NCBI GenBank assembly: GCA_029262295.1
Contig: JAJCZR010000068.1
Span: forward strand, 9,749 to 73,748
Source: Deltaproteobacteria bacterium
Lineage (GTDB): Bacteria > Desulfobacterota_D > UBA1144 > Nemesobacterales > Nemesobacteraceae
Length of the DNA: 64,000 nt
Direction of reading: 5' to 3'
Below, in pieces: positions 43,576 to 60,768 of this stretch (positions within the stretch are counted from its first letter, which is position 1; each line of letters begins with the position of its first letter). The translations under genes and the position numbers were made by a program. Below the pieces are notes generated by a model. The model saw only the letters and a list, made by a program, of their open reading frames with translations, did no database searches and had not been told where the DNA came from.

Positions 43576-44439
43576 ATGAGTAACGAAGTTGAAAAATATG
43601 ATTATGAACCCTTCGCTGACACCGAAGAATATAAAAAGGTGAACAGTGACATTATCACTACCTGGATTCAAATAATGATAGATAAGGGTACAAAAAGTGT
43701 AGATAAATTATTGGACATAGCTACAGGTGCAGGCACTATGGTGCAACTGTTTTTTAACCTTCTACCTTCTAATTTAAAAGAGTCGGCGGTTTTATGTCTT
43801 GATCAGTCTGGTGAAGCTTTGAAATTAGCTCAAGAAAGGCTTGGAAAGGAAATAAAAAAATTAAACCTTATTAACTCACAAATACAGGATATGGATCTTC
43901 CAGATAAGAGCGTTGATGTGGCACTTTGGGGAAATGGCATTCATTATCTTTGTGAAGAAGAACAGATTGAATGTTTAAAAAGAATTAAAAGGGTTCTAAA
44001 ACCAGGCGGCATGTTCTTTTTCAATACAGCTTTTTATGAAGAAGCAAGACCCGCAGACACTCTCCCATTTTATAGATCACAGGTAAAAAATGCAGTTCAA
44101 TATCTGAGAGATAAAGGAATAAAAAGAGAAAAAACCGAGAAAAAAGCAGAGGCAGGTAAATTTCTTCCACGCTCACATTATGAAAGCCTTGTCAGCAAAG
44201 CAGGTTTTAGTCTTGTAGAAGCACAGGAATTTGCTGCCGACCTCACAAAAGATGCCTGGGAACATATAAGCGCATTTCAACAGTATGCTTCAGGAGCCCT
44301 AGGTGGTTATCCATTGGAACATGCTTCTACAGCTATGAAAAATGCTGTTGGGCCAGCAATTCAGCAACATGGTGAAGTGGATAATAGCGGAACTTTCTTT
44401 GTAACAAGAAACTGGCTTGCTATTAGTGCACAAGCCTAA
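43576..44439 (+). CDS. Class I SAM-dependent methyltransferase
   Basis: Motif I LDIATGAGTMVQLF. GGAGG SD 5 nt before the ATG at 43576. The track start at 43564 is a TTG. Confidence 0.65.
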   Translation: MSNEVEKYDYEPFADTEEYKKVNSDIITTWIQIMIDKGTKSVDKLLDIATGAGTMVQLFFNLLPSNLKESAVLCLDQSGEALKLAQERLGKEIKKLNLINSQIQDMDLPDKSVDVALWGNGIHYLCEEEQIECLKRIKRVLKPGGMFFFNTAFYEEARPADTLPFYRSQVKNAVQYLRDKGIKREKTEKKAEAGKFLPRSHYESLVSKAGFSLVEAQEFAADLTKDAWEHISAFQQYASGALGGYPLEHASTAMKNAVGPAIQQHGEVDNSGTFFVTRNWLAISAQA

Positions 44440-44488
44440 GCTTATACAGATTTCTTCTAAAACCAATTTAAGTTAAACTTGTTAACTT

Positions 44489-45442
44489 ATGATGGTTGAC
44501 AAAAGTAAAGAAGTCTCTCCAAACGAATTTGAAATAGGCGCTGTTTCAAAAATTACAGGGATATCGCAGCATCGACTTCGAGTCTGGGAAAGACGTTATG
44601 ATGTTGTAAGTCCAAGAAGAAGTGAATCAAATAGAAGATACTATTCCGGGCAAGATGTAAGAAAACTCCTTTTAATAAAAAGCTTACTTGATGGTGGTAA
44701 CTCTATTGGATCTATTGCCTCTCTTTCAATTAAACAACTTGAAGAAAAGATAAAGAGTGATCCATATCTTAAAACTTCTGACAATAAGAAAAAAAGTTTT
44801 GTAATTAAGGCTGCTGTATGCGGGTTTGATGTTGTAAGCAAAATTGAAAATAATTCCAGAAATTTAAAAAACCTTAAAGTACAACTTCTTGAAACTGATT
44901 TTACTACTTTAAAAAACAAAATTTCTAAAATTGATGTGGAATTACTAATTCTCGAATATGAAACTCTTGAGAACCAAAATATTCAGGAAATTTATAATTT
45001 CATAGGTGAGTCGGGAGCGAACCACGCAGTTCTAATTTATTGGTTTTCAGAAAGTAAAATTCTGGAATCAATAAATAAATCTTTAATTACACCTGTTAGA
45101 TCTCCAATTGAATTGGATGAACTTCTTATTATCTGTAACAATCTTTATAATTTATGCACAGATTTTGAATTAGATTTAAAAAATGAGGCAAGAATTTTTA
45201 ATTTTTCACAGCTAGCAAGTATAGCTTCGTGTACACCTACTGTTGAATGTGAATGTCCCCATCAGCTTGTTACTTTAATATATGGACTTCTAGCTTTTGA
45301 AAAATATAGTGCCGAGTGTGAAAGTAGGAATATTCAGGATGCAAAGCTTCACAGGTTTTTGTATGAGACCACTTCCAAAGCAAGGTCTCTAATAGAAAAA
45401 GCACTGGAAAAAGTAGCAGAAATTGAAGGGATTGAATACTAA
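44489..45442 (+). CDS. MerR-family HTH transcriptional regulator with a long C-terminal domain of unknown function
   Basis: 317 aa. FEIGAVSKITGISQHRLRVWERRYDVVSPRRSESNRRYYSGQDVRKL is a MerR-type HTH. A 7-bp inverted repeat AAGTTAA-N5-TTAACTT abuts the start codon. Confidence 0.65.
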   Translation: MMVDKSKEVSPNEFEIGAVSKITGISQHRLRVWERRYDVVSPRRSESNRRYYSGQDVRKLLLIKSLLDGGNSIGSIASLSIKQLEEKIKSDPYLKTSDNKKKSFVIKAAVCGFDVVSKIENNSRNLKNLKVQLLETDFTTLKNKISKIDVELLILEYETLENQNIQEIYNFIGESGANHAVLIYWFSESKILESINKSLITPVRSPIELDELLIICNNLYNLCTDFELDLKNEARIFNFSQLASIASCTPTVECECPHQLVTLIYGLLAFEKYSAECESRNIQDAKLHRFLYETTSKARSLIEKALEKVAEIEGIEY

Positions 45443-45670
45443 TTGTCAGCCAACTTTTAAAAGAAAATTCTGTAATAACTGCAATTCAAGATGGATAATA
45501 TAACCATGTGGATTTACCTCATTTGTAAATTCAAAAATGTATAAAATTTTGTTAATGGACTCTTTTTAAAATTGCTGGTTATGTAAACATATTTCTGGAA
45601 AGAAGCATTTATTTTGTGACGTTATTAAATAAATCTGGTTTAATGTTTTTGTGTAAGATTAAATTTAAAA

Positions 45671-46387
45671 ATGGAGATAAACATGATTAATAAAAGAATA
45701 ATAACAGTTTTAGGTATTTTGATTTTTTGTTTTTCAATAAATGCAACTGCCGATGAGTTTAGTAAAAGCACAATTCAGGTAAATGGAAAAGGTGAGATCA
45801 CAGCCGAACCTGATGTTGCGTATATAAATATATCTGTGGAAACAAGCTCAAAAGTTGCAGCTGATGCAGTGAGGCAAAATGCTGAAAAAACAACAAATGT
45901 GATTAAAAAAATAAAATCTGTAATCAGTGGGAATGATAAGGTGAAAACTACAAACTACAATCTTTCACCTGTTTATGAATACAACAGCACTACAAAAAAG
46001 CAGTATTTAAAGGAATATAGAGTTGTAAATGAAGTTTTGGTTGAAACTTATAATCTTGATAATATTGGCAAACTTATTGATTCCACTACCACTCTTGGAG
46101 CCAACAGGATAAGCGGGCCAAGGTTTGGAATTAAAAATTCAGATGAACTCGAGAGAAAAGCTTTAGTAAAGGCTGTGGAGGATGCAAAAAAAACAGCTGA
46201 GACTGTAGCCCTTGCTTCGGGTACTAATATTATTAAAATTCTCAGAATTAATCCAAGTTATAACAGACCAGCCCCTCATTTTAACAGGTCTTTCGAGTCT
46301 AGGGCTGTTGCTGATTCTTCTACTCCGATTGAGGCTGGAGATCTAACCATCACAGCGAATGTAACAATTGTTTATGAGATTGAGTAA
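45671..46387 (+). CDS. SIMPL (DUF541) domain periplasmic protein
   Basis: 238 aa. Signal peptide. VNGKGEITAEPDVAYINISVET matches the SIMPL/BP26 N-terminal region. Confidence 0.75.
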   Translation: MEINMINKRIITVLGILIFCFSINATADEFSKSTIQVNGKGEITAEPDVAYINISVETSSKVAADAVRQNAEKTTNVIKKIKSVISGNDKVKTTNYNLSPVYEYNSTTKKQYLKEYRVVNEVLVETYNLDNIGKLIDSTTTLGANRISGPRFGIKNSDELERKALVKAVEDAKKTAETVALASGTNIIKILRINPSYNRPAPHFNRSFESRAVADSSTPIEAGDLTITANVTIVYEIE

Positions 46388-46392
46388 TCGAT

Positions 46393-46713
46393 TTATTCCA
46401 GATTGGAATCGTTTTCTCTTAAAAAATCAAAGGTGTAAAAGCCGGTATCACACCAGTTTTCGCCAACAAATTTTATTGCATAGTTACCAATAAACTCAAT
46501 TTTTTCGGGGCTCATACCTTGTGAACCAAGTGGTATCTTCTTTTTGAAAGGAAGTTTACCTGTCCTGCTTTTTTTTCTTAATCTTCTACAGCTTGCACAT
46601 GGGCAAATCGCTCTTAAATCTTCGTAAAGGAATATACTTTCATGCCCATCGTCCCAAATAATTTGAAGTGTGGTATCTGTAAACTCATTTATTTCTTTAG
46701 GTGTGTGTTCCAT
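46393..46713 (-). CDS. DUF971 domain protein
   Basis: 106 aa with the conserved ICPCASC cysteine motif of DUF971. Confidence 0.55.
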   Translation of the reverse strand: MEHTPKEINEFTDTTLQIIWDDGHESIFLYEDLRAICPCASCRRLRKKSRTGKLPFKKKIPLGSQGMSPEKIEFIGNYAIKFVGENWCDTGFYTFDFLRENDSNLE

Positions 46714-46820
46714 TTGTAATTGTATCCTACCTGAATTCTTTAGAATTTAGTATTAGAGAGTTGCTCATAGAGTATTTCAAGTTGTTGCTATCAAACCTGC
46801 TGGATAGTATAATCAAAACT

Positions 46821-47573
46821 ATGGAACAAGATGCAGTTTCTACTCTTATTGAATGGATTAAAACTTCATCACAGATTGTTTTTCTAACTGGTTCAGAACT
46901 TTGTTATGAAGCTGGTATTCCGGATGTTGCCGATAAAAATTTTAACCCTGATATTAATCAGTATAAAAATATTCCAGAGGTAAGAAAAAAGTACTGGAAC
47001 AAGATCAAAGAGTATTATCCAAAAATTTCATCTGCAAAGCCTTCTCCAACACATGAAGCAATTTATGAGATGGAGCTTTTATACAATGTGGATTGTGTTC
47101 TCACGCAGTGTGCAGACGGGCTTCATCTGAAAACTGGTTCTGAAAAAGTAATAGAGATATATGCATCAATAAACTGGGTTACCTGCCCAAATTGTGGAAA
47201 GGACTATAAGATTGAAGAAGTTATATCAGAGCTTGAAAAAGGTGCTGAAGTTCCAAGTTGCAAGGAATGTGGAAATGACAGGATAAAGCCACCTATTTCT
47301 TTTCCTGGTCAGGCTCTTCCCCACTGGGAGATTAGAGAGTCGTGGATGAGATTACAAAACTGTGATCTTCTAATAATTGTTGGTGCGAATCTTGAAGATG
47401 AACCTGTTGCATCGTTTCCATTTCAGGTCATGAATAACGAGAATAAAGTTGCAATAATTGGTGAAGCTGCCACACTGGCTGATGACTATGTAAGTGCTGT
47501 AATAAATGGGAAACCAAGTCATGTTTTGCCATATATTTTAAAGCAGCTTAAAGAAACAACCATTGTTTCATAA
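46821..47573 (+). CDS. Sir2-family NAD-dependent protein deacylase (sirtuin/CobB-like)
   Basis: About 250 aa from the ATG at 46821. Catalytic QCADGLH. Zn ribbon CPNCG...CKECG. The track start at 46701 overlaps the DUF971 gene and is unlikely. Confidence 0.65.
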   Translation: MEQDAVSTLIEWIKTSSQIVFLTGSELCYEAGIPDVADKNFNPDINQYKNIPEVRKKYWNKIKEYYPKISSAKPSPTHEAIYEMELLYNVDCVLTQCADGLHLKTGSEKVIEIYASINWVTCPNCGKDYKIEEVISELEKGAEVPSCKECGNDRIKPPISFPGQALPHWEIRESWMRLQNCDLLIIVGANLEDEPVASFPFQVMNNENKVAIIGEAATLADDYVSAVINGKPSHVLPYILKQLKETTIVS

Positions 47574-47622
47574 GTTTAAATCCATTAGTATTATAAACCT
47601 AAAAATTAGCGGAGTTTTTTAA

Positions 47623-49086
47623 GTGGATAATGAAGTTTTGTCAGAAGAACTAAAAAAGTATGTATCAAATATTGATAAAGATATTTACACTGTAAGTAAT
47701 ATCCCCGAAGAAGTAATTGCCGTAATATTTGCTTATGTGAGCAGGAGTTCCAAAGGGTTTAGAGAAAATATTGATGTAGTAATAAAAGAGGAGCAACACG
47801 GTAGGGAAAGGGCAGCGAAGTTTCATGAAAAATGGGTTCTAAATTATGGCCACGCATCTGTGGCTGAACATGCCGCTGTACACATGGGTGTTGAAAAAGT
47901 ATCAAGGCTTTTTTCTTCCATATTTGAACTTAGTAATGAATTTCTGTCTTTTACTGAATATTCTCAAAGATACCAAAGACCAAAAAAAGGCGATTTTTAT
48001 GTACCTGATGAACTTTCATCAAATCAAACTCTAAAAACAGAATTTACTCAGCTTTGTGACTATCAGTATGACATTTATGCAAGACTTAACTCAAAGCTTT
48101 TAGAATATCTCAAAGATAAAAATCCAGTACCTTCTGATCAAGACGAGAAAAGACACATCTCAGCACTTGAAAAAATTGCTTTTGAAGATGCAAGGTATGC
48201 ACTCAACCTTGCTACTCTTACCAATCTTGGGATGACAGCCAATGCAAGGGCAATTGAAGACTGTATCTCCAGCCTTCTTTCATCAAAGTATCCAGAAGTA
48301 AGGAAAAGAGCTCGGGAAATGAAAGATGAAGTTAAGTTTTCCGTGCCCACACTCGTAAAGTATGCAAATGAAAATGAATATATAGTTAATACAAGAAAGG
48401 AGTTTTCCCATTTTGATTTAAAAGTTTCTGAATCTGCCCTGAATGGCCCTACTGCAAATCTTTTAGACTTTACGGGAAGGGAAAATGCTAAGCCTGAGAA
48501 TGAGGCTATTAGAAAAGTTTTGCAGGCACTTTTTTATAAATATTCAGAGGCTGATCTTGAGAGTATCAATAGTGAAACTTCCGTTGAACCAGTTGAACTT
48601 GTAGGGCTTTTTGAAAAAGCAGTGAATAGCCTTAGTAAACATGATAATCCAACGAATATATTTAAACTCATAAAGTATGAAGCTGAATTTATACTGAGTG
48701 AAGCCAACTGGCATCAACTTCTTCGCCATAGAAAAGTAAACTGGATTGTAAAAGATCCGTCTGTGAAGAATGGTATAACCGTTCCCCCCAATATCACTGA
48801 GTCAGGCAACACTGATCTTTTAATGAAGGCAGTGGAAATGAGCGAAAGGCTGTATAATAAATTAGTTGAGAGCGGTTTTGAAACTACTGCCCATTATGTT
48901 GTTACAAATGCCCATAATAGAAGAGTAATTGGGGATTTTGATCTTTGGGAACTTTATCATCTTATAAATCTCAGAATGTCTGAGGGTGCGCAGTGGGACA
49001 TTAAAAAGCTTATAGCTGATCTTGCGGAAAAGATTGCTAAATATCACCCTAATCTTGTAAAACCAGCTTTATTGAGGGTTCATTAG
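47623..49086 (+). CDS. ThyX-like (flavin-dependent thymidylate synthase) long-form protein
   Basis: 487 aa. The first half has ThyX-like NYGHASVAEH and YSQRY but no RHR. The second half has LLRHRKVNWIVKDPS (RHRx7-9S-like) and a WDIKKLIADLAEKIAKYHP C-terminal segment. Confidence 0.5.
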   Translation: MDNEVLSEELKKYVSNIDKDIYTVSNIPEEVIAVIFAYVSRSSKGFRENIDVVIKEEQHGRERAAKFHEKWVLNYGHASVAEHAAVHMGVEKVSRLFSSIFELSNEFLSFTEYSQRYQRPKKGDFYVPDELSSNQTLKTEFTQLCDYQYDIYARLNSKLLEYLKDKNPVPSDQDEKRHISALEKIAFEDARYALNLATLTNLGMTANARAIEDCISSLLSSKYPEVRKRAREMKDEVKFSVPTLVKYANENEYIVNTRKEFSHFDLKVSESALNGPTANLLDFTGRENAKPENEAIRKVLQALFYKYSEADLESINSETSVEPVELVGLFEKAVNSLSKHDNPTNIFKLIKYEAEFILSEANWHQLLRHRKVNWIVKDPSVKNGITVPPNITESGNTDLLMKAVEMSERLYNKLVESGFETTAHYVVTNAHNRRVIGDFDLWELYHLINLRMSEGAQWDIKKLIADLAEKIAKYHPNLVKPALLRVH

Positions 49087-49089
49087 ATC

Positions 49090-49284
49090 ATGTCTAAAAT
49101 GCATTTAACAAAATGTGAAGAGTGCGGATACGAAATTACAATGAAGACAAAAACCTGTCTTAATTGTGGAGAGCGAATCGGTGGTATAACTAAATCTGGA
49201 TACAAAGGTTTTATTAGAAAAATATTTTTCATTCTTTTTGCTATCTATATGCTTGCATCCGCACTATGGGGTTTTTGGAAGTAA
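49090..49284 (+). CDS. Small zinc-ribbon protein with C-terminal TM helix
   Basis: 64 aa. CEECG...CLNCG. Hydrophobic tail. Confidence 0.4.
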   Translation: MSKMHLTKCEECGYEITMKTKTCLNCGERIGGITKSGYKGFIRKIFFILFAIYMLASALWGFWK

Positions 49285-49290
49285 ATAATA

Positions 49291-49788
49291 ATGGCAAACC
49301 CGGATCATGTTAATAAGATAAAAGAAGGTGTTTCAAGTTGGAATGAGTGGAGAGAGAAAAACCCTGAGATAAAGCCTGATCTTGGATGGGCAAATCTTGT
49401 ATCACTTGACCTTAAAGAAGTGCACTTTAACGAATCTAATTTAAAACTTGCCTTTTGTAGGGATTCAAACTTTACTAATGCTGATTTCTCGAATGCCAAT
49501 CTGTATGGAACCAATTTCCAAAATGCTGATCTTAAAGATGCAAACTTTGAAAATTCTAATTTGGAAGGCGCACACATTACGAATGCCAATCTCAAAGGGG
49601 CTAATCTTAAAGGTGTAAACCTCAAACTTGCTAATTTTGATGGCTCCGATCTCTCTGATGTAGATCTTATAGGAGCAAAAAAACTAAAGTTTAAACAACT
49701 TTTGAATGTTAATAGTTTAAAAAATACCAAGCTTGATGGTGACTTGCTTGAACAGGTAAAAGCAAATGCACCTCATCTTCTGGATTAA
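49291..49788 (+). CDS. Pentapeptide repeat protein
   Basis: 165 aa with tandem A(N/D)LxG-type pentapeptides (ANLYGTNFQNADLKDANFENSNLEGAHITNANLKGANLKGVNLKLANF). Confidence 0.85.
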   Translation: MANPDHVNKIKEGVSSWNEWREKNPEIKPDLGWANLVSLDLKEVHFNESNLKLAFCRDSNFTNADFSNANLYGTNFQNADLKDANFENSNLEGAHITNANLKGANLKGVNLKLANFDGSDLSDVDLIGAKKLKFKQLLNVNSLKNTKLDGDLLEQVKANAPHLLD

Positions 49789-49790
49789 CT

Positions 49791-50954
49791 ATGGAAGATC
49801 TCCCTTCATTTAAAGATATTCCCCAAAAAAAAGTTTACGCAGTATCCGAACTTAACTCAGAAATAAAATCAATTATTGACGAAGGCTTTGAATCAAAGCA
49901 TATCCTTGTCGCAGGTGAAATTTCAAACTTCAGGGGTAACTATGCAAGTGGTCATTGGTATTTTTCCCTAAAAGATGATCAAAGCCAGATATCCGCTGTT
50001 TCATTTAAGTGGGCCAATAGCCATATAAAGTTTGAGCCTGAAAATGGGATGGAAGTAATCTGCAATGTCCAGGTCTCTGTTTATGAAAAAGGTGGCACTT
50101 ATCAACTTAATGTAAAGCATATTGAACCAAAAGGGGTAGGGGCGCATGCACTTGCCCTTGAGCAGCTCAAAGAAAAACTTTTAAAAGAAGGTCTATTTGA
50201 TCCTGAAAGAAAAAGGCAACTACCTTTTTTGCCGAGTAAAATTGGTGTAGTTACTTCTCCCACTGGTGCAGCTATTAAAGATGTGCTCAAAGTTATTGAT
50301 AGCCGTTTCCCCAATATTCATGTTTTGGTTTCTCCGGCAAGAGTGCAGGGCGGGAGTGCAGCAATTGAGATTATTAAGGCACTTGAAATTCTATACAAAA
50401 TAAAAGACCTTGATTTAATAATTCTAACAAGAGGTGGTGGTTCAAAAGAAGATCTTTGGGTCTTTAATGATGAGAATGTCGCCAGAACAATAGTTAAATC
50501 CCCTGTGCCGCTTATTTCTGCTATTGGACATGAGATAGATATTACTATTTCTGATCTTGTTGCCGATGTAAGGGCTGCCACTCCTTCTAATGCTGCTGAA
50601 CTTGCAGTCAGAGAAAAAACTGAACTTATTTATGGGCTCATTGATTTTAAAAAGAGGATGAATTCTTCATTGAAAAATAAAGTGAATATTGTTGGTTATG
50701 AGCTTGATCAGTATGTTAATCGGATAAAATGGAATATTAATTCAAAACTTGAAGCCATTGAATCTGAAATGAGAAACTTGTCCGGCAAACTGGATTCCCT
50801 AAGTCCACTGAAAGTATTGAGCAGAGGCTACAGTGTTGTAACTAAGAACAAAAAAGTTGTTATCGACTCAAGTAAACTTAAAGCAAAAGATAAGTTAGAG
50901 GTTAGATTTCATATCGGAAAAGCTTTTTGTTCTGTGGATAAAACGGAAAAATAA
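49791..50954 (+). CDS. xseA: Exodeoxyribonuclease VII large subunit
   Basis: 387 aa. OB-fold N-terminus. Catalytic region ILTRGGGSKEDLWVFNDE. Confidence 0.9.
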   Translation: MEDLPSFKDIPQKKVYAVSELNSEIKSIIDEGFESKHILVAGEISNFRGNYASGHWYFSLKDDQSQISAVSFKWANSHIKFEPENGMEVICNVQVSVYEKGGTYQLNVKHIEPKGVGAHALALEQLKEKLLKEGLFDPERKRQLPFLPSKIGVVTSPTGAAIKDVLKVIDSRFPNIHVLVSPARVQGGSAAIEIIKALEILYKIKDLDLIILTRGGGSKEDLWVFNDENVARTIVKSPVPLISAIGHEIDITISDLVADVRAATPSNAAELAVREKTELIYGLIDFKKRMNSSLKNKVNIVGYELDQYVNRIKWNINSKLEAIESEMRNLSGKLDSLSPLKVLSRGYSVVTKNKKVVIDSSKLKAKDKLEVRFHIGKAFCSVDKTEK

Positions 50955-51023
50955 CAAACTCAACATATTTTATACACTGTGATATATTATAATTATTAAG
51001 TTTAGTAAGTTTTTTGAGAAAAT

Positions 51024-51254
51024 TTGATGTCAATCCAGCGTAAAGAATACACATCTCCTGTTGAAGCTCTTGCTTCTATTATTCGTTCGTTGTTTGAATA
51101 CGAGCGAAAGTATAAAATATCTTCAGATGATTTTTTCAATCGTTACCAAGAGGGTAAGATGGAAGATTCTGCTGATTTTGTGGAGTGGGCTGGAGATTAT
51201 CAACATTATATAAATCTTAAAGAAGAATTGGAACGAAAGCTCATTGCAGTATGA
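51024..51254 (+). CDS. Small hypothetical protein, upstream partner of an overlapping two-gene (toxin/antitoxin-like) module
   Basis: 76 aa. Overlaps the downstream ORF by 11 nt. Confidence 0.45.
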   Translation: MMSIQRKEYTSPVEALASIIRSLFEYERKYKISSDDFFNRYQEGKMEDSADFVEWAGDYQHYINLKEELERKLIAV

Positions 51255-51630
51255 TAAATCTCTTCTGGAATATCTTGAGTATGTCCGTCACCTAATACAG
51301 GATTTTAATGATTCAAAAATAGAACAGTATCAAGAAGAGATTCTCTCAAATAATAGAATTAATATTCGGGTAAGGCTTAGGTTTTCTGATAATTCTCTAT
51401 TGCAAATAAGTGAAGCTATCTTTTTGAAAGCTGAAGAAAGTTCTTGGCTTAGTTATCGTTATCATTACCAAGATTCTTCAAAAAAGTTAGTCTTTCGTTA
51501 TGATAATACTCCACATTATCCTGATATTTCTACTCATCCAGATCATAAACATGAAGGTGATCAAGTTTTGGAAAGTTCAAGGCCAACAATTGAGCAGGTA
51601 TTGTTAGAAATAAAAAACTTTTTAAAATAA
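51244..51630 (+). CDS. Hypothetical protein with C-terminal His-rich motif (YDNTPHYPDISTHPDHKHEGD); resembles DUF6516/TumE-like toxin family (tentative)
   Basis: 128 aa. TTG start in the track. Conserved-looking HYP...HPDHKH motif. Confidence 0.45.
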   Translation: MQYDKSLLEYLEYVRHLIQDFNDSKIEQYQEEILSNNRINIRVRLRFSDNSLLQISEAIFLKAEESSWLSYRYHYQDSSKKLVFRYDNTPHYPDISTHPDHKHEGDQVLESSRPTIEQVLLEIKNFLK

Positions 51631-51684
51631 AAGCAAGTAAGAAATTTTAAGAATAAGGGGTAAGGATTTACATTAAAGCTTTTG

Positions 51685-52078
51685 ATGAAGAAATTAAAGA
51701 AAAAAAATAGATGTAACGGTTGAAAAAACAAAAACGGGCTATTCTGCGTATGCAGATGATCTTCCTGTATTTAGCACTGCTGAAAATATATCGGCTTTAT
51801 ATGAAAATTTGATTGAAGCATTAAACCTTCATTATGAAGAAAAGGCTTACGTAGTTGAAGAGAACAACTTAAAATTGAATATTGATTTACAACAATTTTT
51901 TCAATATTACAGGGTTTTGAATGCAAAATTCCTAGCTGAAAGAATTGGTATGAACCCTACGCTGCTTTCTCAATATGTAACTGGGAAAAAACGTCCATCA
52001 AAGAAACAAACTCTAAAGATTATTAAAGGCATTAATAAAGTTGGGAAAGAGCTCTCTAAGATCAATCTTGTAAGTTAA
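51685..52078 (+). pseudogene. hicB: hicB-like antitoxin (UPF0150 N-domain plus XRE-type HTH) disrupted by a frameshift in an A8 tract
   Basis: From the ATG at 51685 the frame stops after 12 codons. The -1 frame from 51707 reads IDVTVEKTKTGYSAYADDLPVFSTAENISALYENLIEALNLHYEE... (HicB fold) and then LAERIGMNPTLLSQYVTGKKRPS (HTH). Removing one A from the run at 51700-51707 fuses them. No hicA nearby. Confidence 0.55.
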
Positions 52079-52242
52079 GTGGTGTAAAGTGTCAGTCTGG
52101 GGCCCATTGTTCACTAATGTTTGGTGGATCAAAGAAAAGATTAATTCTATAAAAATTTATTTGAAAATTGTGTAAAATGTATTGTTGTTTTAATGTGAAT
52201 AATTGTAAAAGTGCTTATTAAGTCTAAGACGGAGAATTTTTT

Positions 52243-53193
52243 GTGATTATTTGTGATAAATGTCAGGCTAATATAACACCAGATTCAAAGTATTGTCCGC
52301 AATGTGGTGATCCTGTTACAGAAGCTGATATATCTAATAAACCAATTGTTGAAGGAAAAATCCCAAGAGCAATAATAGAATTTGGCTATAGTTCGTCTCC
52401 ATCCTATGATAAAGCTGTAAACATAGTTAGTAATATTGACACTTATTCAAGTAGTGGTAATGAAAAGGAAATTAAACATAGAATAGATCTTCCTGTTACT
52501 GAAGTTGAACTTCTAATAACTATTTATGATTTAGTAGGAGGTTGGAAATCTTCATCTATGCTTATTGATGGAAAAAGAGCAACTAAAAGGAATCTAACTT
52601 ATTATGGACTAGGATGTTATAGAAAGAGACAGGAATCGGTTAACCCTAAGCAATATTGCTATGGAGAAGAACAATGGTCTGCAAATATATGGGGATGTTC
52701 CAAACTTAATATGCCTGTTATTACGTGGGGTGGATGGTTAGATTATGGTAGGTTTGATGATGAAGGTATTTGGCACTTTGACAAAGATAAAATTAAAGAA
52801 GAACTGCTTAAAGGGATTAATGAAAATGAATTATGTCCAGTGTTAAATCCCACAAAAATATTTGAGACTCTTGATAAGCTTCCTAATACAATAAATCCAA
52901 AAACTGATAAAAATTGGGAATATAAGGAAACTTACGAAGAGATAGATGGCGAATATAAGAAAGTAGCCAAAGGTATAACACCTATAATAAATAAGATTGA
53001 TACTTTCATACTAGATGATTTTAAGCCACAATGGAAAATTGAATTAGAAAATGATAGAGAAGAACAGAAAATTAGTACTATGGAACTTTCTATTGACCTT
53101 ACAGATCTTCCTAAAAAGAAAAAAACTGGAACTGGATGTCTTGTAAATATTCTTATCTTAATTTCATTGATTAGTGCATGGATCTTTATATAG
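52243..53193 (+). CDS. Hypothetical protein with N-terminal double zinc ribbon and C-terminal TM anchor
   Basis: 316 aa. CDKCQANITPDSKYCPQCGDP at the N-terminus. GCLVNILILISLISAWIFI at the C-terminus. Unknown central domain. Confidence 0.5.
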   Translation: MIICDKCQANITPDSKYCPQCGDPVTEADISNKPIVEGKIPRAIIEFGYSSSPSYDKAVNIVSNIDTYSSSGNEKEIKHRIDLPVTEVELLITIYDLVGGWKSSSMLIDGKRATKRNLTYYGLGCYRKRQESVNPKQYCYGEEQWSANIWGCSKLNMPVITWGGWLDYGRFDDEGIWHFDKDKIKEELLKGINENELCPVLNPTKIFETLDKLPNTINPKTDKNWEYKETYEEIDGEYKKVAKGITPIINKIDTFILDDFKPQWKIELENDREEQKISTMELSIDLTDLPKKKKTGTGCLVNILILISLISAWIFI

Positions 53194-53228
53194 AAGGCAA
53201 ATTATATCTTATTCATGCAAAAATTTTA

Positions 53229-54290
53229 TCAACTCTCAACCAATGCAAGCTGATTAAGTTCAATTACAGTAATTCCATTTTTTACAAGATCAGTTTTGAT
53301 ATTATCTCCCGGCATAGTATCAGTAAAAATATACTTTGATCTCCCGCCGAAGTTTTCTTTTATGGATCCATCTCTGCTTTTGAATTCTTTTGTAATCTTC
53401 TCGAGTTGATCCTTTGTAAGAAAAAGTATTTGAGGCATTACTTCTCTTACATCATCAAAAAAATCTTTTAGGTTTGCTGCAATTGCACCTCTGTTACCTA
53501 ACTGCACATTAAGAACATTTGCAAATTTTGAGAATGAATCTATTGCAGGAAGATATGAAAAAGACTGTGATTCTTCGGTTATAAACTTCAATTTCTTTTG
53601 AATAACTTTTAAAAGATTTATTATTTTTTCCTGTGAGAATTTTTGTGCTTTTGGTTCTACATTTTCACTAAATTTATAAAAAATGGTTGCAGTTGCTTCC
53701 TGTGAAACAGATTGTGAATGTTCATCAAGAGTATCTTTTAGTTTTTTTCTCTTTAGAAAACCAAACTTTACAACGTTAAGGTAGTTAAGGAACTTTTCTT
53801 CAATCTTGATTTTATCTTCTGTAACAATGAAGCCTTTGATTATTCTATTTCTGATTAAATCGTCTTTTGAAATATGTTCGATAATTTCCGGCTTGTCAGA
53901 GAATATGTAATAACTATCTTCAGAGCTATCAACAATTTTGCTTATATCGGAGTATTTTTTGATCGGAATTGTAATTCCGCCCAGTAAGAAAACTGCAAGC
54001 TCAAAAAATAAACTCTCCAAAGTGTTTGTTGAATAAAAAATGATTTTATCTTCTTTCTTAAATTCAAGATCAAGAAGAAAGCAGGCAATGCTTTTCACTT
54101 CAGTTTCAAAGTCGAGCCAGGTTATCTGTTTCCAACTCCAGCCGTCTCTTTTCTGAAATATAAGTTTGGATTTATTTTCTTTAATCCTTTTCTGTAGCAG
54201 GTTATGAAAGTTGTTTTCATTCATGTTATATTGGTTTTCCGGCTTTGGGTTTAAGCTAAAATTAGCAGTTATATTAACTGTTTTAAACAT
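53229..54290 (-). CDS. Truncated AMP-binding (acyl-CoA synthetase, ACSL/FadD-like) N-terminal homolog with degenerate ATP-binding motif; probable pseudoenzyme or gene remnant
   Basis: Aligns to the N-terminal ~350 aa of long-chain acyl-CoA synthetases (KLIFQKRDGWSWKQITWLDFETEVKSIACFL...GGITIPIKKYSD...). Where TSGTTGxPKG is expected it reads KFSENVEPKAQKF. The whole C-terminal half is absent. The likely start is the ATG at 54224. Confidence 0.5.
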   Translation of the reverse strand: MFKTVNITANFSLNPKPENQYNMNENNFHNLLQKRIKENKSKLIFQKRDGWSWKQITWLDFETEVKSIACFLLDLEFKKEDKIIFYSTNTLESLFFELAVFLLGGITIPIKKYSDISKIVDSSEDSYYIFSDKPEIIEHISKDDLIRNRIIKGFIVTEDKIKIEEKFLNYLNVVKFGFLKRKKLKDTLDEHSQSVSQEATATIFYKFSENVEPKAQKFSQEKIINLLKVIQKKLKFITEESQSFSYLPAIDSFSKFANVLNVQLGNRGAIAANLKDFFDDVREVMPQILFLTKDQLEKITKEFKSRDGSIKENFGGRSKYIFTDTMPGDNIKTDLVKNGITVIELNQLALVES

Positions 54291-54303
54291 TAAGTTGAAT
54301 CAA

Positions 54304-55653
54304 ATGAAAAAAATACTCGATTTTGAAAAAGAAAGTTACGCAGAAGCTTTAAAAATAGTGGATAAGCTCCGTTCAAAAGGGCATAAAGCCTTTTTTGTGG
54401 GAGGCTGCGTGAGAGACTCTCTTCTTGGTTTTAAACCTAAAGAGATTGATATTACAACAAGCGCCAATCCAGATGAAGTTCAAAGAATGTTTTTGCGAAC
54501 AGTACCAATAGGAGAGAGTTTTGGAGTTGTATTAGTCCTAGAAGGTGAACATCAGTTTGAGGTGGCAACATTCAGAACAGAATCAAAATATGAAGATGGA
54601 AGGCATCCCGAACATGTTGAATACAGTGAAAGTGAAAAAGAAGATGTATTAAGAAGGGATTTCACAATAAACGGTCTTTTGTATGATCCACTTGAAAGTG
54701 ATTTGTTTGACTATACCGATGGCATTTCTGATCTTGATTCTAAAATAATCAGGACAATTGGTGATCCTTCTGAGAGGTTTTCTGAAGATAAACTCAGAAT
54801 GATAAGAGCTATTAGGTTTGCCTCTAGATTTGGTTTTGAAATTGAAGCTGAAACATACTCTGCCATAACAAGTATGGCTTCTGATATCAATAAAATAAGT
54901 GTTGAGAGATTAAGAGATGAGATTGTAAAGATAATAACTCAAAAGAATCCAGGCAAAGGGTTGAATGGGCTTTATGATTCTGGGCTTCTAAAGCAGGTAC
55001 TCTCCGAAGTCGCAGAGATGAGCGGGGTCCCCCAACCTGCTGAGTTTCACCCTGAAGGTGATGTGTTTGTTCACACGTGCCTTGTGCTGGATAAGCTCTA
55101 TGAAAATACTAATGGAGAGTACTCAGATGAACTTGCAATAGCTGCCCTTTTGCACGATGTTGGCAAACCTCCTACCTTTGAAGAGCTCGACAGAATAAGG
55201 TTTAACGGCCACGACAGGGTAGGGGCGAAAATGGCACAGGTAATTTGTAAAAGACTTCGATTTTCGAAAAAGCAGATTGAGATAATTTCAGGTATCGTTA
55301 GAGATCACTTGAAATTTAAAGATGCTTTTAATATGCGTGAAAGCACTTTGAAAAGGTTTTTGGGCCAGCACCGTTTTGAAGAACATCTTGAGATGCACCT
55401 TGCAGACTGTATGGCAAGCCACGGCATGACAAAAGTTTACTATTTTCTTAAAGATAAGCTTGAAGAGTATAGTGAGGTTGATATCAGGCCGGAACCACTT
55501 TTAAATGGAAAAGATCTTATTTCTATGGGTTATAAACCCGGGCCTATTTTTACTGAAATACTTAATGAAATTGAAGAAAAGCAGCTCGAAGGAAATTTGA
55601 GTTCTAAAGAGGAAGCTATGGACTTTGTTGCAAATACTTTTGTGAATAATTAA
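54304..55653 (+). CDS. cca: CCA tRNA nucleotidyltransferase (class II, with HD domain)
   Basis: Pol-beta head FFVGGCVRDSLLG..DIDITT. HD motif LLHDVGK. Start taken at MKKILDF (54304). Confidence 0.85.
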   Translation: MKKILDFEKESYAEALKIVDKLRSKGHKAFFVGGCVRDSLLGFKPKEIDITTSANPDEVQRMFLRTVPIGESFGVVLVLEGEHQFEVATFRTESKYEDGRHPEHVEYSESEKEDVLRRDFTINGLLYDPLESDLFDYTDGISDLDSKIIRTIGDPSERFSEDKLRMIRAIRFASRFGFEIEAETYSAITSMASDINKISVERLRDEIVKIITQKNPGKGLNGLYDSGLLKQVLSEVAEMSGVPQPAEFHPEGDVFVHTCLVLDKLYENTNGEYSDELAIAALLHDVGKPPTFEELDRIRFNGHDRVGAKMAQVICKRLRFSKKQIEIISGIVRDHLKFKDAFNMRESTLKRFLGQHRFEEHLEMHLADCMASHGMTKVYYFLKDKLEEYSEVDIRPEPLLNGKDLISMGYKPGPIFTEILNEIEEKQLEGNLSSKEEAMDFVANTFVNN

Positions 55654-56126
55654 TTCAGTTCTTCCCGTGTGAAATCACTTGTCAAAAACTCATAATTAAC
55701 AAACCAGGCCTCATTGACTTTATTCCATTCGTTCCACAAAGTAAGTTTTTTTTCTACCACTGAGGGATACCTGTAAAAGGTAATTAGTACTTTTACTTTT
55801 GCATTTTCTTCATCAATAGGTGTGTAATCCTTAATTTCATAACCTGTAATGTTAAGATCATCCTCGTTTTCAGTTGTAAAAGTATCATAAGCTACCAACT
55901 GATCGTGATGAACAAAAGCTGCAGCCCTATCGTAATATTTCCACATCAGCATTTTGTAAAAAGTATCGGCAGTTTTTAGGGGCGTCTCATCCTCTTTATT
56001 AAAAGGTGATTTTGAACTACAACCTGGTGAGAACAATATCCCTAAAACAAGAAATAAAAAGATAGATCTTTTAAAAGTCTGCATCGCAATTAATATAACT
56101 GCTATGAAAGGAGAAAGGGAACTCAC
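55650..56126 (-). CDS. Hypothetical lipoprotein
   Basis: 158 aa. Lipobox LGILFSPGC. Confidence 0.5.
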   Translation of the reverse strand: MSSLSPFIAVILIAMQTFKRSIFLFLVLGILFSPGCSSKSPFNKEDETPLKTADTFYKMLMWKYYDRAAAFVHHDQLVAYDTFTTENEDDLNITGYEIKDYTPIDEENAKVKVLITFYRYPSVVEKKLTLWNEWNKVNEAWFVNYEFLTSDFTREELN

Positions 56127-56154
56127 TTTCGTAAGCCCCCACTTCTTTTTAAAG

Positions 56155-56472
56155 TTAGATTTTTCCCTGAAGCAAAAATGCTATGAGAAGGGCGTAGATT
56201 ACAAGTGACTCAATAAGAGCAAGACCGATAATCATAGGTGTCTGAATCTTTGATGCTGCACCCGGGTTTCTTGCAATTCCGTCTAGAGCTGCGGCAGTTG
56301 CTCTTCCCTGACCTAATCCGCCAAATGCTGCGGCAAGACCAATAGCAATACCAGCTCCGATAGCAATACCCATCTTTGCCAAGTCTCCGCCCTCAGTTGC
56401 AGCAAAAGCACTTGGAGCTACACCAATAGATGCAATAACAGTCAACACAATAAAAGAGAATAACCTCTTCAT
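56155..56472 (-). CDS. atpE: F0F1 ATP synthase subunit c with N-terminal extension
   Basis: 105 aa. [19 protein letters not shown] ... [19 protein letters not shown] is the c-subunit hairpin with its carboxylate Glu. About 25-aa signal-like N-terminal extension. Confidence 0.85.
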
Positions 56473-56517
56473 TTTTTACCTCCTAAAAGTAATGAAATAT
56501 TCTAATTTAATTTAGCC

Positions 56518-57207
56518 TTAATGTTCATGTGCCTCAGACAATGCTATGTATATACTTGAGAGCACGGTAAATATAAATGCCTGTAAAAACGATACAAAGA
56601 TACCTAATCCCACAAATAAAGCAGGTATTAAAAAATGTGTAAGATCAGTAAACACCCCAAGCACTAGATGGTCACCTGTAATATTCATAAAAAGCCTGAG
56701 GGAAAGCGAAATTGGCCTTACAATATGGCTTATTACCTCAATTATAATCATTAGTGGTGCAAGAAAGATTACTGGCCCCATAAAGTGTTTAAGGTATGAG
56801 ATGCCATGTTCTTTAAATCCATAGTAGTTATACATAAAGAATATTACAGCACTGCAGGCAAGAGTTGTGTTTAAATTGCCTGTTGGTGGAAGAAACCCTG
56901 GAACAATTCCAAGTAAGTTGCCAAACAAAATAAAGAAAAAACATCCTGCAAGCAAAGGAAAATATTTTTTAGTTTTTTCTCTGGAACCAATTATATTTTC
57001 AAGAGTATTAAACAGAAACTCCAAACCCAGAATTTCGAATACATTATTGAAAGTGGGTTTTTCATCAGGAATTACAGAAGATTCCTTTTGATAATTTTTT
57101 TTGATTTTAAATCCTATCAGGGTGAGTAAAACAACAACTAATATTGCGCCCAAGATATGATCGTATTCTATAAGGTTTAGGAGTGTAAACCAGCTAAAGT
57201 GTCCCAT
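56518..57207 (-). CDS. atpB: F0F1 ATP synthase subunit a
   Basis: 229 aa. Conserved Arg in ISLSLRLFMNITGDH. Confidence 0.85.
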   Translation of the reverse strand: MGHFSWFTLLNLIEYDHILGAILVVVLLTLIGFKIKKNYQKESSVIPDEKPTFNNVFEILGLEFLFNTLENIIGSREKTKKYFPLLAGCFFFILFGNLLGIVPGFLPPTGNLNTTLACSAVIFFMYNYYGFKEHGISYLKHFMGPVIFLAPLMIIIEVISHIVRPISLSLRLFMNITGDHLVLGVFTDLTHFLIPALFVGLGIFVSFLQAFIFTVLSSIYIALSEAHEH

Positions 57208-57555
57208 TTAAACTTGATCCTTTAAATTTTTCCCTATGATTATTATTACTACCGAAGTAAGCCCTATAATGAAACCATAAAAATTCACTTTTGCAAATAA
57301 AAACAGGCTTGCAATTATTCCGAGCAGTATTAGTAGTTTAAGTGCAATTAAAAATAGGCTAAAACCAATATTATATTTTTTTTCAGTAAGCGATATTACA
57401 ATAAATCTTATAACTGTGTAGTCGAGAGTAAAAAGTATTCCACCTAATGCTATACCGAGTGCAATTTCTTTTTGTCCAATTAATAAGTTTATGACACTGA
57501 AGAGTGAAATTACAACAATGGCAATTTTTTCTACACCTGAAATTATGTTATTCAT
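57208..57555 (-). CDS. atpI: ATP synthase protein I-like (AtpI/AtpR) small membrane protein
   Basis: 115 aa, 4 TM, immediately upstream of atpB. Confidence 0.55.
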   Translation of the reverse strand: MNNIISGVEKIAIVVISLFSVINLLIGQKEIALGIALGGILFTLDYTVIRFIVISLTEKKYNIGFSLFLIALKLLILLGIIASLFLFAKVNFYGFIIGLTSVVIIIIGKNLKDQV

Positions 57556-57760
57556 CGTTTTTATTTTTTATCTTTAGTAGTTTTATTAGCACTGTAAATC
57601 CTGTAAACACACCTACAATTAAGCCAATTAATGTAAAATAAGGTGTTTTGTTTGCAAACTTTTCATCCAGATAACTTCCAAGTAAAAGCCCCACAGCTAC
57701 AGAGGTGGCTAGTTCAAATCCAATTACAATATAGAAAGTCCATTTTTGGTTATTAATAAT
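57548..57760 (-). CDS. AtpZ/ATPase_gene1-like small membrane protein with probable AUU start
   Basis: Minus-strand frame reads IINNQKWTFYIVIGFELATSVAVGLLLGSYLDEKFANKTPYFTLIGLIVGVFTGFTVLIKLL... (matches the AtpZ pattern G.E....G..LD..F.T.P). Its stop overlaps the atpI ATG (GATGAATAA). No ATG/GTG/TTG in frame. The frame opens at the hemL stop. AAGGA lies 4 nt upstream of ATT at 57760-57758. Confidence 0.4.
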   Translation of the reverse strand: MINNQKWTFYIVIGFELATSVAVGLLLGSYLDEKFANKTPYFTLIGLIVGVFTGFTVLIKLLKIKNKNDE

Positions 57761-57769
57761 CTTTTCCTT

Positions 57770-59059
57770 TTAATTCAAATCTTTAAATGATTTATAAACA
57801 GCATCCAACGTTTTATTAACCTCTTTTTTTGTATGAGAAGTGGAAACAAATACTGCCTCAAATTGAGATGGCGGAAACATTACGCCATTTTCAAGAAGAT
57901 TTTTAAAGAAGGCGCCATATTTTTTGGTATCGCACTTGAGTGCACTTTTGTAGTTTACAACTTCATTCTTTGTGAAAAAGATTGTAAACATAGATCCAAT
58001 CTGGTTTATATTTGCATCAATTCTGGATTTTGAAATTATATCTTCTATTCCATCCACAAGTTCCGCAGTTGTATCTTCAAGGTATTTATAAGTTTTTGAA
58101 TTGAGTTTTTTTAAGGTTGCAAACCCTGCCGACATTGCAAGCGGATTTCCTGAAAGTGTGCCTGCCTGATACATCGGGCCTTCTGGGGAAACCATTTTCA
58201 TTATCTTTTTACTTGCCCCGTAAGCTCCCACTGGCAAACCACCGCCAATAATTTTCCCGAGGCATGTAATATCTGGGATTACACCAAATCTTTTTTGAAC
58301 ACCACCCATATCTAATCTAAAGCCTGTCATAACTTCATCGAATATTAAAAGTGATTTGTGCTTTTTGGTGATTCTTTTAAGATCCGCAAGAAACTTCTTT
58401 TCAGGAACCACAACTCCCATATTCCCGCAAACAGGCTCAATTATTATTCCAGCGATATTATCCGGGTATTTTTTGAATAGTTTTTCTACCGAATTTATAT
58501 CACCGTATTTTGCAAGAAGGGTTTTGTCTGTGAAAGATTTTGGCACTCCGGGGCTGCTTGGGTTTCCAAAGGTTGTGGCGCCCGAGCCTGCTTTTACAAG
58601 CAGGTAATCAGGGTGTCCATGATAGCAACCTTCAAACTTAACAATGTAGTCATTTCCTGTATAAGCCCTTGCGAGCCTTATTGCACTCATGGTGGCTTCT
58701 GTACCAGAGTTGGTCATTCTCACTTTTTCTATCGAAGGTACGCTTTTCACAACAAGTTTTGCCACTTCTATTTCCAGCTCGCACGGAGCTCCATAGCTTG
58801 TGCCCTTGGAAGCAGTTTTTTTAATAGCACTTACAACATCTTTATCTGAGTGCCCAAGTATTAACGGGCCCCATGAACCTATATAATCAATAAATTTGTT
58901 GCCGTCTTCATCATAAATATAAGGCCCTTTGGCTTTTGAGATAAACAGAGGTGAGCCCTGCACAGCATTGAATGACCTGACCGGGCTGTTTACACCACCT
59001 ACAAGATAGTTTTGTGCCTTTTTAAATAATCTTTTTGAGGTTTTGTTGTTAAGCTTCAT
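57770..59059 (-). CDS. hemL: Glutamate-1-semialdehyde 2,1-aminomutase
   Basis: LVGGVNSPVRSF N-terminus. PLP-lysine region. Start taken at MKLNNKTSKRLF (59059) rather than the extended track start 59128. Confidence 0.9.
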   Translation of the reverse strand: MKLNNKTSKRLFKKAQNYLVGGVNSPVRSFNAVQGSPLFISKAKGPYIYDEDGNKFIDYIGSWGPLILGHSDKDVVSAIKKTASKGTSYGAPCELEIEVAKLVVKSVPSIEKVRMTNSGTEATMSAIRLARAYTGNDYIVKFEGCYHGHPDYLLVKAGSGATTFGNPSSPGVPKSFTDKTLLAKYGDINSVEKLFKKYPDNIAGIIIEPVCGNMGVVVPEKKFLADLKRITKKHKSLLIFDEVMTGFRLDMGGVQKRFGVIPDITCLGKIIGGGLPVGAYGASKKIMKMVSPEGPMYQAGTLSGNPLAMSAGFATLKKLNSKTYKYLEDTTAELVDGIEDIISKSRIDANINQIGSMFTIFFTKNEVVNYKSALKCDTKKYGAFFKNLLENGVMFPPSQFEAVFVSTSHTKKEVNKTLDAVYKSFKDLN

Positions 59060-59100
59060 AAGTGTATAAGAATGGACGAGTTTAAGTCTATAATCAAGAA

Positions 59101-60756: not shown

Positions 60757-60768
60757 AAAATCTTAAGA

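What the first reader, a model, noticed from the sequence alone, without database searches (positions are those of the whole stretch)
51024..51630. Overlapping two-gene module resembling a toxin-antitoxin pair (76 aa plus 128 aa with HYP...HPDHKH motif)
Two small ORFs overlap by 11 nt. The larger one ends in a conserved-looking His cluster (YDNTPHYPDISTHPDHKHEGD) reminiscent of the DUF6516/TumE-like family. The smaller has no recognisable fold. It sits at the edge of a decayed accessory islet that also holds the broken hicB. It is a candidate uncharacterised TA or stress module.
Basis: inference. Interest (0 to 1): 0.5.

Follow-up and report, generated by a model that had tools for sequence, protein, structure and literature searches.

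The report
Known TumA-TumE toxin-antitoxin gene pair

Summary
Both ORFs are real: tumA at 51027..51254 (75 aa from the ATG) and tumE at 51244..51630 (128 aa, TTG start), overlapping by 11 nt.

**Family assignment**
- The larger protein matches Pfam PF20126 "Toxin TumE" (5e-23). It also passes the NCBIfam TumE equivalog model (143 bits, cut-off 90).
- The smaller protein matches NCBIfam "antitoxin TumA" (98.8 bits, cut-off 100).
- Both match the PADLOC phage-defence candidate PDC-M44A/B.

**What is known about the family**
TumE-TumA (formerly DUF6516) was shown in 2023 to be a translation-inhibiting type II toxin-antitoxin system. The window proteins align without gaps, at 43% and 39% identity, to what is very probably one of the tested pairs, from Crenothrix sp. 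D3. That pair also overlaps by 11 nt.

**Conservation of the pairing**
In 79 of 80 other genomes a tumA homologue lies directly upstream of tumE. The one exception is cut by a contig end.

**Structure**
The TumE model (pLDDT 88) has the published helix, seven-strand sheet, helix fold and keeps every invariant residue.

**Genomic setting**
The pair sits in a 2.3-kb variable islet between xseA and an AMP-binding-enzyme gene. In close relatives this site is empty, holds hicAB, or holds a tumA remnant.

The toxin's biochemical mechanism is unsolved for the whole family. This copy adds nothing new to that question.

The parts
50960..50988 (+). Promoter-like site (TCAACA, 17 nt, TATATT, with TG before the -10) about 40 nt upstream of tumA. 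Candidate operon promoter only.
   Evidence: Consensus scan. The region gave 10 such sites against 6.3 expected, so this is weak evidence. The xseA-tumA spacer is conserved in relative L081.
51027..51254 (+). tumA antitoxin gene (75 aa from the ATG; an in-frame TTG lies one codon upstream at 51024).
   Evidence: NCBIfam NF045776 TumA 1.5e-28, 98.8 bits, cut-off 100. PADLOC PDC-M44A 8.5e-29. 81 homologues, nearly all 76 aa, with an invariant FVEWAxDY motif. 39% identical without gaps to the Crenothrix sp. D3 TumA. Three-helix model, pLDDT 83.9.
51244..51254 (+). 11-nt overlap of the tumA 3' end with the tumE 5' end (translational coupling).
   Evidence: All 76 measurable homologous loci overlap, by 4 to 32 nt; 11 nt is the commonest value (37 of 76), and the Crenothrix locus L031 is among those.
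51244..51630 (+). tumE toxin gene (128 aa, TTG start).
   Evidence: Pfam PF20126 TumE 5.3e-23. NCBIfam NF045777 TumE 143.3 bits, cut-off 90. PADLOC PDC-M44B 8.2e-44. All invariant residues kept. AlphaFold2 model pLDDT 88.2, helix, seven strands, helix. 43% identical without gaps over 116 aa to the Crenothrix sp. D3 TumE.
51685..52078 (+). hicB-like antitoxin gene with a C-terminal HTH, frameshifted in an A8 run at 51700..51707. There is no partner hicA. It is a neighbour in the same islet, not part of the TumAE module.
   Evidence: 82% DNA identity to the intact hicB of L082. A8 versus A7 in the alignment. HTH_3 hit. L082 carries hicA (PF07927) directly upstream of hicB.
50955..53235 (.). Variable islet of 2.28 kb between the xseA stop and the 3' end of the AMP-binding-enzyme gene. 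It holds tumA, tumE, the broken hicB and a 316-aa zinc-ribbon ORF (52243..53193).
   Evidence: Absent from relative L083, where about 20 nt join the flanks. Also absent from L085, L086 and apparently L087. Different cargo in L082, L081 and L084. GC is 30.7% against 35.7% for the whole window.

Best explanation
This is an intact two-gene type II toxin-antitoxin operon of the TumE-TumA family. Transcription probably starts in the 70-nt spacer after xseA. tumA is translated first, and tumE is translationally coupled to it through the 11-nt overlap, so antitoxin is made at least as fast as toxin. TumA, a small three-helix protein, binds TumE and keeps it inactive. When TumA falls short, for example through proteolysis, a shut-off of host expression, or loss of the locus, free TumE blocks protein synthesis and stops growth. 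The likeliest chemistry is RNA cleavage, carried out by conserved Glu, Arg, His, Asp and Lys residues. These lie on strands 1 and 4 to 6 of its sheet and the loop after strand 5: E31, R72, H74, R85, D87, N88, H91, H101, K102, H103.

At this locus the pair is accessory cargo in a small variable islet. It acts as a selfish stabilising module, an abortive-infection module, or both.

Shown here: family membership, operon anatomy, conserved pairing, predicted fold, and accessory status of the islet. Taken from the literature for tested homologues: toxicity, neutralisation and translation inhibition.
For: Curated profile hits to both proteins. All 18 invariant and 23 near-invariant TumE positions are retained, and the ORF is full length against the model, positions 4-122 of 122. 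A tumA homologue lies immediately upstream on the same strand in 79 of 80 genome loci from many phyla; the one exception is truncated by a contig end. The genes overlap in all 76 measurable loci, most often by 11 nt. Locus L031 comes from Crenothrix sp. D3, one of the six species whose pair was shown to be toxic and neutralised in E. coli. Its gene lengths fit the published synthetic fragments. The window proteins align to it without gaps at 43% and 39% identity. The predicted TumE fold matches the published description of two helices packed on a seven-stranded antiparallel sheet. RefSeq already annotates homologues on cyanobacterial plasmids as 'toxin TumE'. The islet is missing from close relatives with 66-91% identical XseA.
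Against: Nothing was tested on this particular pair, and it is only 39-43% identical to a tested one. TumA scores 1.2 bits under the NCBIfam equivalog cut-off. The tumE start is a TTG with no clear Shine-Dalgarno sequence. RNase activity is explicitly unproven even for the tested homologues. Neither protein resembles any solved structure, so nothing independent supports the chemistry. The surrounding islet is decaying: hicB is frameshifted, and a close relative has lost tumE. Selection on the module may therefore be weak.
Confidence: 0.85

Rival explanations
1. The main role of the pair is anti-phage abortive infection, not plasmid-like addiction or stress response. Infection depletes or displaces TumA, and TumE shuts down translation before the phage completes its cycle. 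This differs from the best explanation in biological role, not in molecular mechanism.
For: Both proteins match PADLOC phage-defence candidate PDC-M44A/B. These models were built from gene cassettes found embedded inside BREX, DISARM or type I R-M systems. In relatives the same chromosomal slot holds other defence-type cargo: hicAB in L082 and dcm methylase fragments in L081.
Against: PDC systems are explicitly untested candidates. No recognised defence system flanks the pair in this window. No phage assay exists for any TumAE in the literature searched.
Confidence: 0.3
2. The module is a non-functional relic. The reading frames are intact, but the pair is no longer expressed or no longer toxic, and it is on its way to the decay already seen in its neighbours.
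For: The adjacent hicB is frameshifted and hicA is gone. In relative L081 the last codons of tumA and all of tumE are replaced by unrelated DNA. tumE has a TTG start and a weak ribosome-binding context. Some homologous loci have tumE split across two frames (L008, L010, L060).
Against: Both ORFs are full length and retain every invariant residue. The coupled-overlap architecture is preserved. TTG starts are chosen for 34 of 76 homologous tumE genes by the same criterion.
Confidence: 0.1
3. The pair is not a toxin-antitoxin system but a small enzyme with a helper or regulator, serving ordinary metabolism or nucleic-acid processing linked to the neighbouring xseA.
For: The biochemical activity of TumE is unknown and it sits next to a DNA-repair nuclease gene.
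Against: The pair is absent from close relatives that keep xseA. Homologues occur in unrelated contexts in many phyla. There is no housekeeping family hit. Six homologous toxins arrested E. coli growth and were rescued by their partners.
Confidence: 0.03

Closest known systems
TumE-TumA type II toxin-antitoxin system (Pfam PF20126, formerly DUF6516; NCBIfam NF045777 and NF045776; Durairaj et al., Nature 2023, PMC10584680)
   Same: Same toxin domain, above the curated cut-offs. Same 76-aa-class antitoxin family. Same gene order, antitoxin first. Same 11-nt overlap as the Crenothrix sp. D3 locus. Same predicted toxin fold of helix, seven strands, helix. All invariant residues present.
   Different: Only 43% (toxin) and 39% (antitoxin) identical to the Crenothrix pair. 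The host is an uncultured low-GC bacterium whose XseA is closest to MAGs labelled Thermodesulfobacteriota or Candidatus Dadabacteria, not a gammaproteobacterium. TumA falls 1.2 bits under the equivalog cut-off. Not tested experimentally.
PADLOC phage-defence candidate PDC-M44 (Payne et al. 2024, bioRxiv 10.1101/2024.01.29.577857)
   Same: Both genes hit the two PDC-M44 models nearly end to end, at 8.5e-29 and 8.2e-44.
   Different: PDC-M44 is a computational candidate defined by being embedded in BREX, DISARM or type I R-M loci. The window copy is not embedded in such a system, and no anti-phage activity has been shown.
RelBE-type type II toxin-antitoxin modules (translation-targeting mRNA interferases)
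   Same: Works like them: a small upstream antitoxin, a translationally coupled downstream toxin, and translation as the target. One TumE partner class was reported to be a remote RelB homologue.
   Different: No sequence or fold similarity of this TumE or TumA to RelE, RelB or any solved structure. Not a member.
HicAB toxin-antitoxin system (neighbouring remnant)
   Same: The gene just downstream (51685..52078) is a HicB-type antitoxin with a C-terminal HTH, 82% identical in DNA to the hicB of an intact hicAB pair at the same site in relative L082.
   Different: hicA is absent and hicB is frameshifted. The TumAE proteins themselves are unrelated to HicA and HicB.

Membership tests
TumE-TumA toxin-antitoxin system | Toxin carries the TumE (PF20126 / DUF6516) domain above curated thresholds | tested here: met
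   Pfam 81.3 bits against a cut-off of 23.4. NCBIfam TumE equivalog 143.3 bits against a cut-off of 90, model positions 4-122 of 122.
TumE-TumA toxin-antitoxin system | Partner is a TumA-family antitoxin (NCBIfam NF045776) | tested here: inconclusive
   98.8 bits against an equivalog cut-off of 100, E 1.5e-28, model positions 1-73 of 76. Homology itself is clear: PADLOC PDC-M44A 8.5e-29, and 39% identity without gaps to the Crenothrix sp. D3 TumA. The curated cut-off is narrowly missed.
TumE-TumA toxin-antitoxin system | Bicistronic arrangement with the partner gene directly upstream of tumE on the same strand | tested here: met
   The window genes overlap by 11 nt. 79 of 80 homologous loci show the same order, and the exception is cut by a contig end. 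All 76 measurable loci overlap, by 4-32 nt.
TumE-TumA toxin-antitoxin system | Alpha+beta fold with two helices packed against a seven-stranded antiparallel sheet and no PDB relative | tested here: met
TumE-TumA toxin-antitoxin system | Conserved YRYH...RYDNxPH...PxHKH residues retained | tested here: met
   All 18 invariant columns of a 24-sequence alignment are present in the window protein.
TumE-TumA toxin-antitoxin system | Toxin arrests growth, cognate antitoxin neutralises it, and translation is inhibited | not testable with these tools
   Shown only for six gammaproteobacterial pairs, with metabolic labelling for A. tepidum TumE alone.
PADLOC PDC-M44 phage-defence candidate | Both component HMMs hit adjacent genes | tested here: met
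   PDC-M44A 8.5e-29 and PDC-M44B 8.2e-44 on the two overlapping genes.
PADLOC PDC-M44 phage-defence candidate | Protection against phage | not testable with these tools
   PDCs are untested candidates by their authors' own description.
HicAB toxin-antitoxin system (neighbour at 51685..52078) | Intact hicA toxin gene adjacent to an intact hicB | tested here: not met
   No hicA homologue in the window islet. hicB has a +1 frameshift in an A8 run compared with the intact L082 copy.

The most novel reading that the evidence does not exclude
The xseA / AMP-binding-gene junction in this lineage is a recombination hotspot where toxin-antitoxin and restriction-modification cassettes replace one another with gene-boundary precision. 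tumAE sits exactly where hicA sits in a relative, with homology resuming at the hicA-stop/hicB-start ATGA. In another relative tumE alone has been excised between the last codons of tumA and the tumE stop. If such swaps are adaptive, for example if TumAE took over an orphan HicB-HTH regulator or toxins are exchanged under phage pressure, the locus would be a natural example of modular toxin exchange in an uncultured lineage. It would also be circumstantial support for TumAE as a defence system.
Probability: 0.12. Interest if true: 0.45.

Novelty: already known. Interest (0 to 1): 0.15.

Why it matters
It matters little beyond correct annotation. The pair should be labelled tumA/tumE, not hypothetical. 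It extends a family whose tested members are all Gammaproteobacteria, though homologues are already known across many phyla, to an uncultured low-GC lineage near Dadabacteria/Thermodesulfobacteriota. The comparison with relatives gives a clean empty-site versus filled-site picture of a small hotspot that carries toxin-antitoxin and methylase cargo. The real open question is what TumE does chemically: its fold has no solved relative and its RNase activity is unproven. That question belongs to the whole family, and this copy makes it no easier to test.

Tried and rejected
- **Source record.** I looked for the window's own contig by exact protein look-up of TumE, TumA and XseA. None was on record. 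The organism was therefore inferred only from named XseA homologues.
- **Cluster look-up.** It gave no names for the window proteins.
- **Later literature.** A search for TumE or DUF6516 mechanism work after 2023 found none in the held library.
- **Insertion signatures.** I looked for target-site duplications, att-like repeats or mobility genes around the islet. Only short repeats at chance level turned up, with no integrase or transposase.
- **Other copies and RNAs.** Rfam found nothing in the whole window. There is no second tumE or tumA copy in the window.
- **L081 tumE.** I first read the weak DNA matches in L081 as a decayed tumE. The alignment shows instead that unrelated DNA replaces it.
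- **Organism guess.** My first guess from base composition was Leptospira. The XseA homologues contradict it.
- **Not run.** The 1.84-billion-protein representative search was not used, because family membership was already decisive.

Full report
**1. The observation**

ORF 51024..51254 (+) codes for 76 aa from a TTG, and an ATG follows immediately at 51027, giving 75 aa. ORF 51244..51630 (+) codes for 128 aa from a TTG. They overlap by 11 nt. The quoted His-rich string is present.

**2. What the proteins are**

The 128-aa protein matches Pfam PF20126 "Toxin TumE" at E 5.3e-23 (81.3 bits, gathering score 23.4). It also matches the NCBIfam equivalog model NF045777 "toxin TumE" at 143.3 bits (cut-off 90), covering model positions 4-122 of 122.

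The 76-aa protein has no Pfam hit. It matches NCBIfam NF045776 "antitoxin TumA" at 98.8 bits, E 1.5e-28, which is just under the cut-off of 100.

Both proteins also hit the paired PADLOC models PDC-M44A and PDC-M44B, at 8.5e-29 and 8.2e-44.

**3. What is known about the family**

TumE-TumA was defined by Durairaj et al. (Nature 2023, PMC10584680).
- DUF6516 proteins adopt an alpha+beta fold with two helices on a seven-stranded antiparallel sheet, and have no PDB relative.
- They usually lie downstream of a small partner gene.
- Six gammaproteobacterial toxins arrested E. coli growth and were fully neutralised by their cognate partners.
- The Allochromatium tepidum toxin reduced 35S-methionine incorporation.
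- An RNase activity was proposed and described as not yet proven.

I found no later mechanistic paper in the held library. PDC-M44 belongs to a set of 145 untested "phage defence candidates". These were derived from cassettes embedded in BREX, DISARM or type I R-M loci.

**4. Tests of membership beyond profile hits**

*Homologues.* TumE has 41 relatives and TumA 81 in the large protein collection. The exact window sequences are on one 124-kb NCBI contig. The next-closest relatives are only 65% (TumE) and 72% (TumA) identical.

*Conserved residues.* A 24-sequence TumE alignment has 18 invariant columns: Y10, E31, F47, L53, Y71-R72-Y73-H74, R85-Y86-D87-N88, P90, H91, P99, H101, K102 and P114. 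All are present in the window protein. TumA has an invariant F51-V52-E53-W54-A55 run, followed by D57 and Y58, in its last helix.

*Pairing.* A scan of one genome per species found at least 573 TumE-encoding stretches. Of the 80 best loci, drawn from Nitrospirota, Desulfobacterota, Cyanobacteria, Bacteroidota, Gammaproteobacteria and others, 79 have a TumA-profile hit immediately upstream on the same strand. The exception, L053, starts inside tumE at a contig end.

*Overlap.* In all 76 loci where the start could be assigned, the two genes overlap: by 4 nt in 8 loci, 8 nt in 25, 11 nt in 37, 14 nt in 4, and 20 and 32 nt in one each. The window's 11-nt overlap is therefore the family's usual translational-coupling arrangement.

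*Comparison with a tested pair.* The paper's supplementary table lists Crenothrix sp. D3 among the six tested pairs. My locus L031 is from Crenothrix sp. D3 and carries a 76-aa tumA and a 129-aa tumE that also overlap by 11 nt. These lengths fit the published synthetic fragments of 289 and 440 bp. That L031 is the tested pair is my inference from organism and lengths, because accession numbers could not be checked. The window TumE is 43% identical to it over 116 residues, and the window TumA 39% over 72 residues, both without gaps.

*Existing annotation.* RefSeq already labels homologues on Nostoc plasmids "toxin TumE".

**5. Genomic context**

*Host.* The upstream gene is xseA. Its closest named relatives are MAGs labelled Thermodesulfobacteriota or Candidatus Dadabacteria, so the host is an uncultured low-GC bacterium of that neighbourhood.

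*The same site in relatives.* Contigs of relatives show the same backbone: thyX, a pentapeptide-repeat gene, xseA, then a convergent AMP-binding-enzyme gene and a CCA-adding-enzyme gene. They differ between xseA and the AMP-binding gene:

| Locus | XseA identity to window | Content of the site |
|---|---|---|
| L083 | 91% | empty, about 20 nt |
| L085, L086 | 66% | empty |
| L087 | 78% | apparently empty |
| L082 | 90% | hicA, hicB and a 190-aa ORF |
| L084 | 82% | an unrelated 345-aa ORF |
| L081 | 89% | tumA remnant followed by unrelated DNA |

*L081 in detail.* Its tumA is 96% identical at protein level over residues 1-68. Unrelated DNA with broken cytosine-methylase fragments then replaces the tumA 3' end and all of tumE. 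Homology resumes at window position 51608.

*The islet.* The window's 2.28-kb block 50955..53235 is therefore an accessory islet in a variable slot. Its GC content is 30.7%, against 35.7% for the whole window. I found no flanking repeats or mobility genes.

*The hicB remnant.* The window's hicB matches the L082 hicB from exactly the hicA-stop/hicB-start ATGA onward. It has A8 where L082 has A7 (51700..51707), which breaks the frame. Whether this is a real mutation or a homopolymer assembly error cannot be decided here.

**6. Mechanism**

I take this to be a working type II toxin-antitoxin operon. tumA and tumE are co-transcribed from the spacer after xseA. A promoter-like site lies at 50960..50988, which is weak evidence. 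tumE translation is coupled to that of tumA. TumA binds and silences TumE, and free TumE blocks translation.

The conserved charged and histidine residues lie on strands 1 and 4 to 6 and in the loop after strand 5. Residues E27/E31, R72/H74, R85/D87 and H101/H103 alternate in phase along their strands. This would put them on one face of the sheet and suggests a hydrolytic active site. The family literature calls RNase activity unproven.

My confidence by step:
- Family membership: about 0.95.
- The general toxin-antitoxin mechanism for this copy: about 0.8.
- RNA cleavage as the chemistry: about 0.4.

The biological role is open. It could be selfish stabilisation of the islet or abortive-infection defence. 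The PDC-M44 match and the defence-type cargo at the same site in relatives lean towards defence, but nothing has been tested.

**7. Verdict**

The system is already described and is named by standard annotation models. This copy is an untested but typical member in a new host lineage. Interest is low. The only mildly notable point is the cassette turnover at the xseA hotspot.

Noticed in passing
window 51685..52078 (A-run 51700..51707): The hicB-type antitoxin gene (HicB N-terminal part plus HTH_3) is intact except for one extra A in a homopolymer: A8 here, A7 in relative L082. hicA is missing. Similarity to L082 begins exactly at the hicA-stop/hicB-start ATGA, so tumAE occupies the position of hicA. 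This could be a real pseudogene, a slippage-prone tract or an assembly error.
   Followed up: partly
L081 1270..2120 (corresponds to window 51024..51647): In a close relative tumA is 96% identical at protein level for 68 residues and then acquires a different C-terminus. All of tumE is replaced by about 600 nt of unrelated DNA, and homology resumes at the tumE stop region. This leaves an orphan, altered antitoxin. The contig name suggests low (4x) coverage.
   Followed up: partly
L081 3000..4300: The same slot in L081 holds fragments of a C-5 cytosine DNA methylase (PF00145), broken into several short ORFs. An 80-aa ORF there (4000..4242, minus strand) looked to me like a Vsr-type endonuclease, from memory only, and it had no Pfam hit.
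   Followed up: partly
window 52243..53193: A 316-aa ORF with an N-terminal zinc-ribbon (CxxC...CxxC) and a hydrophobic C-terminal tail. Apart from the ribbon it has no family match. It is unrelated to the ORFs at the same position in L082 and L084, and only a decayed fragment of it is recognisable in L081.
   Followed up: partly
window 50955..53235 versus L083 6165..6184, L085 5162..5171: The xseA / AMP-binding-gene junction is a variable hotspot in this lineage: empty in three or four relatives and filled with different cargo in four others. No repeats, integrase or transposase were found.
   Followed up: yes
L008 4001..4369, L010 3927..4258, L060 2293..2666: In these genomes the TumE profile hit is split across two reading frames while tumA is intact. 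These may be toxin pseudogenes or assembly frameshifts.
   Followed up: no
window 49090..49284: A 64-aa ORF with a CxxC...CxxC zinc-ribbon and a hydrophobic tail lies between thyX and the pentapeptide-repeat gene. A 64-67-aa gene is called at the same position in L084, L085 and L087, so it is probably a real conserved small protein.
   Followed up: no
phage record BK065154.1 7190..7390 (hit H10): The only phage-collection hit to TumE is a partial match (40% identity over 56% of the query, E 4e-6) in Archaeoglobus profundus pleomorphic provirus 1. Only 9 of 72,556 plasmids carry a homologue, and all 9 are cyanobacterial.
   Followed up: no
window 1..64000: No Rfam family reaches its gathering score anywhere in the 64-kb window.
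   Followed up: no
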